Assembly (NCBI RefSeq): GCF_016026235.1
Contig: NZ_CP065613.1
Direction: 5' to 3' (one strand)
DNA length: 64,000 nucleotides
Source: Escherichia coli
GTDB taxonomy: Bacteria > Pseudomonadota > Gammaproteobacteria > Enterobacterales > Enterobacteriaceae
A program made the position numbers. Within the stretch, counting starts at the first letter, position 1, and every line of letters begins with the position of its first letter. Shown one piece after another: positions 27,045 through 30,000 of this stretch.

Positions 27045-30000
27045 TTACACCTTTATTGGCGGTTTCCTCGCGGTGAGCTGGACTGACACTGTACAGGCCA
27101 GCCTGATGATTTTTGCCCTGATTCTGACACCGGTTATCGTCATTATCAGTGTCGGTGGCTTTGGTGACTCGCTGGAAGTGATCAAACAAAAGAGCATCGA
27201 AAACGTTGATATGCTCAAAGGTCTGAACTTTGTTGCCATTATCTCACTGATGGGTTGGGGGCTGGGTTACTTCGGGCAGCCGCACATTCTGGCGCGTTTT
27301 ATGGCGGCGGATTCTCACCACAGCATTGTCCATGCGCGTCGTATCAGTATGACCTGGATGATCCTCTGCCTGGCAGGGGCGGTGGCTGTCGGCTTCTTTG
27401 GGATTGCTTACTTTAATGAGCACCCGGCGGTAGCAGGCGCGGTAAACCAGAACGCCGAGCGCGTGTTTATCGAACTGGCGCAAATTCTGTTTAACCCGTG
27501 GATTGCCGGGATTCTGCTGTCGGCAATTCTGGCGGCGGTAATGTCAACCTTAAGTTGCCAACTGCTGGTGTGCTCCAGTGCGATTACCGAAGATTTATAC
27601 AAAGCGTTTCTGCGTAAACATGCCAGCCAGAAAGAGCTGGTGTGGGTAGGGCGTGTGATGGTGCTGGTGGTGGCGCTGGTGGCGATTGCGCTGGCGGCAA
27701 ACCCGGAAAACCGCGTGCTGGGCTTAGTGAGCTACGCATGGGCAGGCTTTGGCGCCGCGTTTGGTCCGGTGGTGCTGTTCTCGGTGATGTGGTCACGCAT
27801 GACGCGCAACGGTGCGCTGGCGGGGATGATCATCGGTGCGCTGACGGTTATCGTCTGGAAACAGTTCGGCTGGCTGGGGCTGTACGAAATTATTCCGGGC
27901 TTCATCTTCGGCAGTATCGGGATTGTAGTGTTTAGTTTGCTGGGTAAAGCGCCGTCAGCGGCGATGCAAAAACGCTTTGCCGAGGCCGATGCGCACTATC
28001 ATTCGGCTCCGCCGTCACGGTTGCAGGAAAGCTAAGGGACTTAGCCTGCGGCGGTTTTGTTTGGCTTCAGCAGCGGGTTGCGCTCCCTTAATGTGCCTCG
28101 CCATATAAATTGAATGGTGCAGGGAGCGCGCAGGGGGCGGCCAATCGCCGCGGCCCCCTGCACCCCGGGCTCTGGCGAACAAAATCGCCGCTGCGCGGTA
28201 CCTTCAGCTTATCCCCTTCGGCTACCGGGTCGGGCGCGAGGTAACGTCCTGTAAGACGCGCCCTCAGCCCACATCCATGTGGGCTGCCCCGGCCTTCGGG
28301 GAACGCTTCAGCGATTTTGACGCCACCAACACCCGCGCTGTTCTTATGTTCCGGGCAAAAAGTTAGATTTGATAATCGAGGATGGACGAAATTGCTTGAT
28401 ACACCCGCTTATCAGTTTTACATGGAAGTTTTGATGTATTGAGTCAGGACGGTTTTGTCGGCTGGATACGGCGTTTACGCGGCATCCGGCAAGAACACAT
28501 GGCTCGTTGTAAACAATCCCATCTTTGTACCTGGAATAATCGTTTATATCCCCTGGCATTACCTCTCTTTGTTTACATTTCAACATCATTTTATAAACAT
28601 TCCGCTTGTATTTTTCTTTACCGTAATGATAATCGCTATCACTGCGATTTACTTTTCTTTGCATAGATTGACTCAGAAAAACGTTTAAGGGTGGGTGGCA
28701 TGTTTGTTCCGTTTCTCATTATGTTGCGCGAAGGACTTGAAGCCGCGCTGATTGTCAGTTTGATTGCCAGCTATCTTAAGCGTACCCAGCGAGGCCGATG
28801 GATTGGTGTGATGTGGATTGGCGTGTTGCTTGCCGCTGCGTTGTGCCTGGGCTTGGGGATCTTCATTAACGAAACCACCGGCGAATTTCCGCAAAAAGAG
28901 CAGGAACTGTTTGAAGGTATCGTGGCGGTGATCGCCGTGGTGATCCTTACCTGGATGGTTTTCTGGATGCGCAAAGTGTCGCGCAACGTCAAAGTACAAC
29001 TGGAGCAGGCAGTCGATAGCGCATTGCAGCGTGGAAATCATCATGGCTGGGCGCTGGTGATGATGGTCTTTTTTGCCGTTGCAAGGGAAGGGCTGGAGTC
29101 GGTCTTTTTCCTGCTGGCGGCATTTCAACAAGATGTCGGGATCTGGCCGCCGCTGGGTGCAATGCTCGGTCTTGCTACTGCCGTGGTGCTAGGCTTCCTG
29201 CTCTACTGGGGCGGTATTCGCCTCAATCTTGGTGCATTTTTTAAATGGACCAGCCTGTTTATTCTCTTCGTCGCCGCAGGGCTGGCGGCTGGTGCCATTC
29301 GCGCATTTCATGAAGCCGGATTGTGGAACCACTTTCAGGAAATCGCCTTCGATATGAGCGCAGTGCTCTCAACTCACTCGCTGTTTGGCACGCTGATGGA
29401 AGGGATTTTTGGCTATCAGGACGCACCGAGCGTCAGCGAAGTCGCCGTCTGGTTTATTTATCTCATCCCGGCGCTGGTGGCATTTGCTCTGCCACCACGC
29501 GCAGGGGCGACAGCGTCTCGCTCCGCGTAACAAATACGACGCAAACTCTTGCTTAGTTACAACATACTTTAAAGGGATAGTCTCGTCATGACCATTAACT
29601 TCCGCCGTAACGCATTGCAGTTGAGCGTGGCTGCGCTGTTTTCTTCTGCTTTTATGGCTAACGCCGCTGATGTGCCGCAGGTCAAAGTGACCGTGACGGA
29701 TAAGCAGTGCGAACCGATGACCATTACGGTTAACGCCGGGAAAACACAGTTCATTATTCAGAACCATAGCCAGAAGGCGCTGGAGTGGGAGATCCTCAAA
29801 GGCGTGATGGTGGTGGAAGAGCGGGAAAATATCGCCCCTGGTTTTAGCCAGAAAATGACGGCGAATTTACAGCCTGGCGAATACGATATGACCTGCGGTC
29901 TGCTGACTAACCCGAAAGGGAAGTTGATCGTCAAAGGTGAGGCAACGGCGGATGCGGCGCAAAGTGATGCGCTGTTAAGTCTTGGTGGTGCAATTACTGC

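What the first reader, a model, noticed from the sequence alone, without database searches (positions are those of the whole stretch)
28700..29530. efeU is intact in this genome
Seen in sequence: an uninterrupted 276-aa FTR1-type permease ORF with both REGLE iron-binding motifs, followed by efeO and efeB. Established knowledge: in E. coli K-12 efeU carries a frameshift that makes the EfeUOB ferrous-iron system cryptic. So this strain is not K-12-like at this locus and probably has a working EfeUOB system.
Basis: partly seen in the sequence, partly recalled or inferred. Interest (0 to 1): 0.3.

Follow-up and report, generated by a model that had tools for sequence, protein, structure and literature searches.

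The report
Intact efeU iron permease gene
This E. coli carries the normal, uninterrupted efeU iron-permease gene with its partners efeO and efeB; this is the usual state of the species, and the broken copy in laboratory strain K-12 is the exception, so the finding is correct but ordinary.

Summary
An uninterrupted 276-codon efeU (ATG 28700 to TAA 29530, + strand) has REGLE motifs at residues 10-14 and 129-133. Full-length efeO (29588-30715) and efeB (30721-31992) follow it. Aligned with K-12, the window keeps both Gs at 28805-28806; K-12 lacks one G there (codon 36), which is the published cryptic lesion. Among 5,417 complete E. coli genomes carrying the locus, only 368 have the K-12 allele, and all 60 of those listed are laboratory K-12 derivatives. 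So intact efeU is the species norm and was already known. The window EfeU differs from the experimentally functional O157:H7 protein by one residue (E241D), and EfeO is identical to K-12 EfeO. The 78 bp upstream of the start codon, including a Fur-like box, are identical to K-12 and O157:H7. A working system is therefore likely but not shown. There are two caveats. E241 is invariant in 116 of 116 close homologs. EfeB carries G148D, an allele seen in 2 of 4,753 genomes, at a position that is Gly in 77 of 87 diverse homologs. Interest is low. In passing: IS-associated losses of pga, dgcT and csg genes flank the intact operon.

The parts
28700..29530 (+). efeU coding sequence: 276-aa FTR1/EfeU-type inner-membrane iron permease, uninterrupted
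   Evidence: ORF, translation; NCBIfam NF041756 331 bits, cut-off 255; Pfam PF03239 300 bits; seven hydrophobic segments.
28727..28741 (+). First REGLE motif (aa 10-14), in hydrophobic segment 1
   Evidence: invariant in 116/116 homologs.
29084..29098 (+). Second REGLE motif (aa 129-133), in hydrophobic segment 4
   Evidence: conserved in 110-112 of 116 homologs.
28805..28807 (+). Codon 36 (GGT). The GG at 28805-28806 is the site where K-12 has lost one G; both Gs are present here.
   Evidence: alignment with K-12, O157:H7 and FDAARGOS_943; simulated deletion gives a stop after 36 codons; literature: deletion in codon 36.
29420..29422 (+). EfeU codon 241, GAC (Asp). It is Glu in O157:H7, in repaired K-12 and in 116/116 close homologs. 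It lies between hydrophobic segments 6 and 7, in the conserved GYQE-x-P-x-VSE stretch.
   Evidence: the exact 61-mer occurs in only 5 complete genomes.
28622..28640 (+). Fur-box-like sequence CGTAATGATAATCGCTATC, matching 15/19 of the consensus, 60 bp upstream of the efeU ATG
   Evidence: own scan; about 0.28 hits at this level expected per 64 kb; identical in K-12 and O157:H7. Fur control of the operon is from the literature.
28648..28662 (-). CpxR-box-like sequence GCAAAGAAAAGTAAA (one mismatch to GTAAA-N5-GTAAA), between the Fur-like box and the start codon
   Evidence: 8 such sites in the window against 3.85 expected, so it is weak on its own. Its position fits the CpxAR regulation named in the title of Cao et al. 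2007. This is inference only.
29588..30715 (+). efeO: 375-aa periplasmic protein with a cupredoxin-like N-terminal domain and an M75/imelysin C-terminal domain
   Evidence: identical in protein sequence to K-12 EfeO.
30721..31992 (+). efeB: 423-aa Tat-exported DyP-type haem peroxidase/deferrochelatase. The twin-arginine motif SRRRLLK, D235, H329 and R347 are present.
   Evidence: (about 99% identical to solved YcdB/EfeB structures 2Y4F and 3O72; the 3O72 construct starts at residue 36).
31162..31164 (+). EfeB codon 148, GAC (Asp). It is Gly in K-12, O157:H7, the crystal-structure sequences and 77/87 diverse homologs.
   Evidence: the exact 61-mer occurs in 2 of 4,753 genomes.
32031..32049 (+). 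Weak terminator-like stem-loop 39 bp after the efeB stop codon; possible end of the operon
   Evidence: consensus scan only.

Best explanation
This is the ordinary wild-type efeUOB operon of E. coli, in its usual chromosomal place between putP and phoH. efeU is intact because this strain never acquired the single-G deletion in codon 36 that is private to the K-12 laboratory lineage. Shown here: the three reading frames are complete; both REGLE motifs are present; EfeU has seven hydrophobic segments; EfeB has its Tat signal and haem-site residues; and the 78 bp upstream of the start codon, including a Fur-like box, are identical to K-12 and O157:H7. Inferred from published work on O157:H7, Nissle 1917 and repaired K-12: the operon is repressed by Fe-Fur and regulated by CpxAR and acid; EfeO (Sec) and haem-loaded EfeB (Tat) are exported to the periplasm; periplasmic Fe2+ (or haem iron released by EfeB) is oxidised and handed over by EfeO/EfeB; and iron passes through EfeU via the REGLE glutamates. 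I put the intact wild-type allele at about 0.99 and a functional system in this strain at about 0.75.
For: The ORF and motifs are confirmed. The EfeU, EfeO and EfeB equivalog models match above cut-off over their full length, as do the Pfam domains. The K-12 lesion is localised to the GG at 28805-28806 and is absent here; K-12 efeU is annotated as frameshifted. The K-12 allele is in 368 of 5,417 genomes, and all 60 listed are laboratory K-12 derivatives; 5,049 lack it. The exact intact 81-mer is in 3,587 genomes. EfeU is 275/276 identical to O157:H7, EfeO is identical to K-12, and EfeB differs from K-12 at 2 residues. D235, H329, R347 and the RRR motif are present. The Fur-like box scores 15/19 and the upstream sequence is identical to K-12 and O157:H7. 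Across the operon, 20 synonymous against 3 nonsynonymous codon differences vs K-12 fit purifying selection. Literature: the K-12 deletion in codon 36, the gene being complete in many other strains, and Fur repression; the MG1655 transporter being non-functional through the frameshift; restoring an in-frame operon improving growth under iron restriction.
Against: No functional data exist for this strain. EfeU carries D at position 241, where all 116 close homologs have E; the residue sits in a fully conserved stretch of the segment-6/7 loop. In yeast Ftr1, acidic residues in that loop are required for function. EfeB carries D at position 148, which is Gly in 77/87 diverse homologs and in almost all E. 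coli. The generic sigma-70 scan found no promoter upstream of efeU. The CpxR-like site is not statistically compelling.
Confidence: 0.8

Rival explanations
1. The operon is intact by reading frame but functionally weakened. The lineage-restricted substitutions EfeU E241D (conserved acidic residue in the loop between hydrophobic segments 6 and 7) and/or EfeB G148D (conserved glycine) reduce or abolish transport. The system would then be cryptic or crippled by a different route from K-12.
For: E241 is invariant in 116/116 homologs of at least 79% identity, within GYQE-x-P-x-VSE. Loop-6 acidic residues are required in yeast Ftr1. G148 is Gly in 77/87 homologs down to about 33% identity, comparable to G139 and P154. 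The G148D allele is in only 2/4,753 genomes and the D241 61-mer in only 5. Neighbouring loci in this lineage are decaying.
Against: E to D keeps the carboxylate. Position 148 is outside the GXXDG haem-site motif and away from D235, H329 and R347, which are all intact. The synonymous-to-nonsynonymous ratio (20:3 vs K-12) shows no general relaxation of selection. The D241 allele occurs in at least five complete genomes from different sources, so it persists in nature.
Confidence: 0.18
2. The main physiological role of the intact system is to extract iron from haem in the periplasm (EfeB/EfeO deferrochelation, followed by EfeU import), rather than to take up free Fe2+ at low pH.
For: PMC3577903 reports that the O157:H7 EfeUOB system promotes iron release from haem in the periplasm and transport of that iron to the cytoplasm, and that EfeB binds haem and protoporphyrin IX. 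The EfeB haem-site residues are present here.
Against: The same literature describes EfeU-dependent Fe2+ uptake in acidic medium (titles of Grosse 2006 and Cao 2007). The two roles are not exclusive, and nothing in the sequence discriminates between them.
Confidence: 0.3
3. The apparent intactness is a sequencing or assembly artefact, for example a spurious extra G at the GG dinucleotide.
For: Single-base indels are a common error class in some sequencing technologies.
Against: The site is only a dinucleotide, not a long homopolymer. The two-G state is shared by O157:H7, FDAARGOS_943 and 5,049 of 5,417 complete genomes. The downstream frame encodes a full-length match to the EfeU model.
Confidence: 0.01

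Closest known systems
EfeUOB (YcdNOB) of E. coli O157:H7 (Cao et al. 2007, Mol Microbiol 65:857; cited)
   Same: Same operon order and spacing. EfeU is 275/276, EfeO 374/375 and EfeB 417/423 identical. 99 of the 100 bp upstream of the start codon are identical, including the Fur-like box. efeU is intact.
   Different: EfeU E241D, EfeO D237E, and six EfeB substitutions including the rare G148D. In O157:H7 strain EC4115 the putP-efeU spacer contains an extra hypothetical gene of 1,344 bp.
E. coli K-12 efeU (ycdN) pseudogene
   Same: Same locus and neighbours (putA-putP-efeUOB-phoH). 98.8% DNA identity. EfeO is identical, and EfeB differs at 2 residues.
   Different: K-12 lacks one G of the GG at window 28805-28806 (codon 36), which gives a stop after 36 codons and a 243-aa downstream ORF. 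K-12 also lacks the 123-bp repeat in the putP-efeU spacer.
Yeast Ftr1p/Fet3p high-affinity iron permease-oxidase pair
   Same: EfeU belongs to the same FTR1 family (PF03239). It has seven hydrophobic segments, REXLE motifs in segments 1 and 4, and conserved acidic residues in the loop before segment 7.
   Different: The partner proteins are a cupredoxin/M75 protein (EfeO) and a DyP haem peroxidase (EfeB), not a multicopper oxidase. No strict DXXE motif is present in the EfeU loop (sequence inspection).
Bacillus subtilis YwbLMN (EfeUOB) and Staphylococcus aureus FepABC
   Same: Tripartite system of a permease, an M75 protein and a Tat-exported DyP peroxidase, in a Fur-repressed operon.
   Different: The Gram-positive EfeO orthologs lack the cupredoxin domain and are predicted lipoproteins. 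EfeB identity is only 31-36%.

Membership tests
EfeU / FTR1 iron permease (NCBIfam NF041756, TIGR00145; Pfam PF03239) | Full-length match to the family model above the curated cut-off | tested here: met
   NF041756 331.4 bits (cut-off 255), TIGR00145 351.2 bits (cut-off 303.8), PF03239 299.9 bits (cut-off 25.3); residues 1-275 cover model positions 1-283 of 284.
EfeU / FTR1 iron permease (NCBIfam NF041756, TIGR00145; Pfam PF03239) | Two REXLE (REGLE) motifs in transmembrane segments 1 and 4 | tested here: met
   REGLE at aa 10-14 and 129-133, inside hydrophobic segments 1-24 and 118-141.
EfeU / FTR1 iron permease (NCBIfam NF041756, TIGR00145; Pfam PF03239) | Seven transmembrane segments | tested here: met
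   A Kyte-Doolittle scan gives seven distinct hydrophobic segments. Orientation was not tested.
EfeU / FTR1 iron permease (NCBIfam NF041756, TIGR00145; Pfam PF03239) | Conserved acidic residues in the loop before the last transmembrane segment (DXXE in yeast; E241 and E247 in enterobacterial EfeU) | tested here: inconclusive
   E247 is present. Position 241 is D instead of the E found in 116/116 close homologs. The carboxylate is retained; the functional consequence is unknown.
EfeU / FTR1 iron permease (NCBIfam NF041756, TIGR00145; Pfam PF03239) | Iron transport activity | not testable with these tools
   This needs 55Fe uptake or growth assays.
EfeUOB tripartite operon | efeU, efeO and efeB adjacent on one strand, with all three frames complete | tested here: met
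   28700-29530, 29588-30715 and 30721-31992, all on the + strand, with no internal stops; all three equivalog models are met.
EfeUOB tripartite operon | EfeB is a Tat-exported DyP peroxidase with the haem-site residues D235, H329 and R347 | tested here: met
   The SRRRLLK motif and D235, H329 and R347 are present; TIGR01412 614.5 bits (cut-off 428).
EfeUOB tripartite operon | EfeB retains the family-conserved glycine at position 148 (FDERFGL) | tested here: not met
   D148 here, against Gly in 77/87 diverse homologs and in the solved structures. This does not affect family membership, but it is a caveat on function.
EfeUOB tripartite operon | Iron (Fur) regulation | tested here: inconclusive
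   A 15/19 Fur-box-like site lies at 28622-28640, identical to K-12 and O157:H7. The scan at 3 mismatches or fewer found nothing. Binding was not tested.
K-12-type cryptic efeU allele | Single-base deletion in codon 36 that truncates EfeU | tested here: not met
   Both Gs are present at 28805-28806. The window is not a member of this allele class, which comprises 368 of 5,417 genomes.

The most novel reading that the evidence does not exclude
The operon is open-reading-frame intact but functionally compromised by two lineage-restricted substitutions at strongly conserved positions (EfeU E241D in the conserved acidic loop; EfeB G148D). That would be a second, cryptic route to losing Efe function, in an IS-rich lineage that is shedding neighbouring surface and biofilm loci (pga, dgcT, csg).
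Probability: 0.15. Interest if true: 0.25.

Novelty: already known. Interest (0 to 1): 0.07.

Why it matters
It matters little beyond correct annotation. It confirms that the strain has the full gene set for the Fur-regulated, acid-induced EfeUOB iron-uptake route that K-12 lacks, so K-12 is a poor reference for iron physiology at this locus. The population count gives a simple rule: only 368 of 5,417 complete genomes carry the K-12 deletion, and those listed are all laboratory derivatives, so a frameshifted efeU marks K-12 ancestry. The only mildly useful new lead is the pair of rare substitutions at conserved sites (EfeU E241D, EfeB G148D). These could serve as natural variants for probing the permease loop and the EfeB fold.

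Tried and rejected
1. A scan for the 19-bp Fur consensus at 3 mismatches or fewer found nothing. My own scan showed the upstream site matches 15/19, just below that threshold.
2. The generic sigma-70 scan found no promoter upstream of efeU, so I name no promoter hexamers.
3. The CpxR-box pattern gives 8 hits against 3.85 expected in the window. I report the efeU-proximal hit only as a weak lead.
4. No solved structure of any EfeU/FTR1 homolog was found by sequence, so structural placement of E241 was not possible.
5. The primary paper (Cao et al. 2007, PMID 17627767) is not held in the library. I relied on open-access papers that cite it.
6. I considered the upstream GTG at 28691 as the start codon. 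I rejected it in favour of ATG 28700, which RefSeq uses in three genomes.
7. I considered a sequencing artefact at the GG and rejected it on population evidence.
8. I followed a hint of a second frameshift allele (P0199, deletion in the GG at 28820-28821). It is real but occurs in only 1 of 5,381 genomes.
9. The 61-mer probes count exact haplotypes, so they are lower bounds for the D241 and D148 alleles.

Full report
**Observation.** The ORF listing and direct translation show a stop-free frame on the + strand from ATG 28700 to TAA 29528-29530, giving 276 aa. The mechanical ORF starts nine bases earlier at GTG 28691. RefSeq annotation of the same gene in K-12, O157:H7 and FDAARGOS_943 starts at the ATG equivalent to 28700. 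REGLE occurs twice, at residues 10-14 and 129-133, inside the first and fourth of seven hydrophobic segments. The protein matches NCBIfam EfeU (331 bits, cut-off 255), TIGR00145 (351 bits, cut-off 304) and Pfam FTR1 (300 bits) over its full length. efeO (29588-30715, 375 aa; cupredoxin-like plus M75/imelysin domains) follows 57 bp later. efeB (30721-31992, 423 aa; DyP peroxidase) follows 5 bp after efeO. Both match their equivalog models end to end.

**Comparison with K-12 and O157:H7.** A 1,001-bp query around efeU matches 5,417 of 5,426 complete E. coli genomes. K-12-type records align over 1,000 rather than 1,001 bases. A four-way alignment places the difference at a GG dinucleotide, window 28805-28806. 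K-12 has a single G there, while the window, O157:H7 EC4115 and FDAARGOS_943 have two. This is codon 36 (GGT). Removing one G in silico gives a stop after 36 codons and re-opens the frame as a 243-aa ORF. RefSeq flags the K-12 gene as a frameshifted pseudogene. [quoted passage not shown] PMC2808357 and PMC7549933 say the same of MG1655.

**How unusual is an intact efeU?** It is not unusual.
- An 80-base probe carrying the K-12 deletion matches exactly in 368 of 5,417 genomes. All 60 listed are laboratory K-12 derivatives such as MG1655, DH5alpha, C600, J53, DH1 and NCM3722. The other 5,049 genomes do not carry it.
- The corresponding intact 81-mer from the window is found exactly in 3,587 genomes. 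The listed sub-100% examples that are not K-12-type span 81 bases of the record, so they are SNPs and not indels.
- A protein-cluster representative (P0199) revealed a second, independent one-base deletion 15 bp downstream, in the GG at 28820-28821. It occurs in only 1 of 5,381 genomes.
- The complete-genome set is enriched for laboratory strains, so 6.8% overstates the natural frequency of the K-12 allele.

**Is the system likely to work?**

Evidence for:
- EfeU differs from the O157:H7 protein, and from K-12 with the G restored, only by E241D. EfeO is identical to K-12 EfeO. EfeB differs from K-12 EfeB at G148D and F416L, and L416 is also the O157:H7 residue.
- The EfeB twin-arginine motif (SRRRLLK) and the haem-site residues D235, H329 and R347 are present. 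The protein is about 99% identical to the solved YcdB/EfeB structures.
- The 78 bp upstream of the start codon are identical to K-12 and O157:H7. They contain a 15/19 match to the Fur consensus at 28622-28640 and a weak CpxR-like site at 28648-28662.
- Codon differences across the operon against K-12 are 20 synonymous to 3 nonsynonymous, as expected under purifying selection.

Evidence against:
- E241 is invariant in 116 of 116 EfeU homologs of at least 79% identity. It sits in the fully conserved stretch GYQE-x-P-x-VSE between hydrophobic segments 6 and 7. In yeast Ftr1, acidic residues in that loop are required for function (PMC11817551). The exact D241 61-mer occurs in only five complete genomes.
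- EfeB G148 is Gly in 77 of 87 near-full-length homologs drawn from a 50%-identity representative library. That is as conserved as G139 and P154. The D148 61-mer occurs in 2 of 4,753 genomes.
- E to D is conservative. Position 148 is not one of the named haem-site residues, D235, H329 and R347. I therefore put a functional system at about 0.75.

**Mechanism.** The sequence shows three intact genes in operon arrangement, export signals on EfeO and EfeB, the REGLE motifs, and Fur-like and CpxR-like sites. The rest is inferred from the literature: Fe-Fur repression and CpxAR/acid regulation; Sec export of EfeO and Tat export of haem-loaded EfeB; oxidation and hand-over of periplasmic iron (free Fe2+ at low pH, or iron released from haem by EfeB/EfeO); and passage through EfeU. 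None of these steps was tested here.

**Novelty and score.** This is a correct reading of a known polymorphism. The window carries the species-typical allele and K-12 is the outlier. Novelty is 'already known' and interest is about 0.07. The most novel reading not excluded is that the two rare substitutions impair the system, making it cryptic by another route. I give that a probability of about 0.15, and it would be of modest interest even if true.

**Context noticed in passing.** The window is 99.9% identical and colinear with E. coli FDAARGOS_943 over 1-36686, but it differs downstream in several ways.
- At 36686 a 5'-truncated pgaB abuts an IS3 element (36686-37943). The 5.7 kb holding the rest of pgaB, pgaA and dgcT is missing.
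- A 1,449-bp IS110-family element (39245-40693) is inserted next to the RtT sRNA/tRNA-Ser region.
- An IS1 (44645-45413) abuts a 5'-truncated csgG, and csgDEF is absent.
- mdtG is 5'-truncated at 56939. Non-colinear DNA follows, encoding a serine recombinase.
- A 123-bp GC-rich repeat that is low-copy in E. coli genomes (28160-28282) sits in the putP-efeU spacer and is absent there in K-12.

Together these show an IS-active lineage that is losing biofilm-matrix genes on the downstream side of an efeUOB operon that has stayed intact.

Noticed in passing
window 31162-31164 (efeB codon 148): EfeB has Asp where K-12, O157:H7, the crystal-structure sequences and 77/87 diverse DyP-A homologs have Gly (FDERFGL). 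The exact 61-mer is found in only 2 of 4,753 complete E. coli genomes (FDAARGOS_943 and poultry strain MB31).
   Followed up: yes
window 29420-29422 (efeU codon 241): EfeU has Asp where 116/116 close homologs have Glu, in the conserved GYQE-x-P-x-VSE loop before the last transmembrane segment. The exact 61-mer is present in 5 complete genomes from bovine, tableware, hospital and other sources.
   Followed up: yes
window 28160-28282: A 123-bp GC-rich segment in the putP-efeU spacer is absent at this site in K-12. It occurs 1-5 times per E. coli genome (median 2) without annotation, so it is a low-copy intergenic repeat with presence/absence polymorphism. It lies more than 400 bp upstream of efeU and is not expected to affect the promoter.
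   Followed up: partly
window 35183-37943: pgaB is 5'-truncated: the ORF at 35183-36601 matches the PgaB model only from position 202 of 671. It abuts an IS3 element (36686-37943). Relative to FDAARGOS_943, 5.7 kb holding the rest of pgaB, pgaA and dgcT is missing, so PNAG deacetylation and export genes are lost. In FDAARGOS_943 itself pgaB is frameshifted, pgaA has an internal stop and dgcT is split by IS1.
   Followed up: partly
window 39245-40693: A 1,449-bp insertion absent from FDAARGOS_943 carries a 398-aa IS110-family ('RNA-guided') transposase ORF (39270-40466, minus strand). It is inserted within the RtT sRNA repeat region next to tRNA-Ser.
   Followed up: partly
window 44149-46528: The curli locus is rearranged. 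An IS1 (44645-45413) abuts a 5'-truncated csgG (model positions 114-277 only). csgD, csgE and csgF are missing relative to FDAARGOS_943. The csgB and csgA sequences remain. The IS5-family element that follows csgA in FDAARGOS_943 is absent here.
   Followed up: partly
window 55891-64000: mdtG is 5'-truncated (model positions 86-408) and colinearity with FDAARGOS_943 ends at 56939. The following 7 kb encodes a serine recombinase/invertase-like ORF (57389-58078) and three ORFs with no NCBIfam match. This may be an island or prophage junction. A second 15/19 Fur-box-like site lies at 63580-63598.
   Followed up: no
window 28820-28821 (efeU codon 41); protein P0199: A second, independent efeU frameshift allele exists in public data: loss of one G from this GG, giving a 243-aa product that starts MDWCDVDCVLL. 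It is found in 1 of 5,381 complete genomes (OkiPb01717, bovine). The window does not carry it.
   Followed up: yes
L003 576-1919 (O157:H7 EC4115, putP-efeU spacer): O157:H7 carries an extra 1,344-bp hypothetical gene between putP and efeU that is absent from the window and from K-12, so this spacer is a variable region.
   Followed up: no
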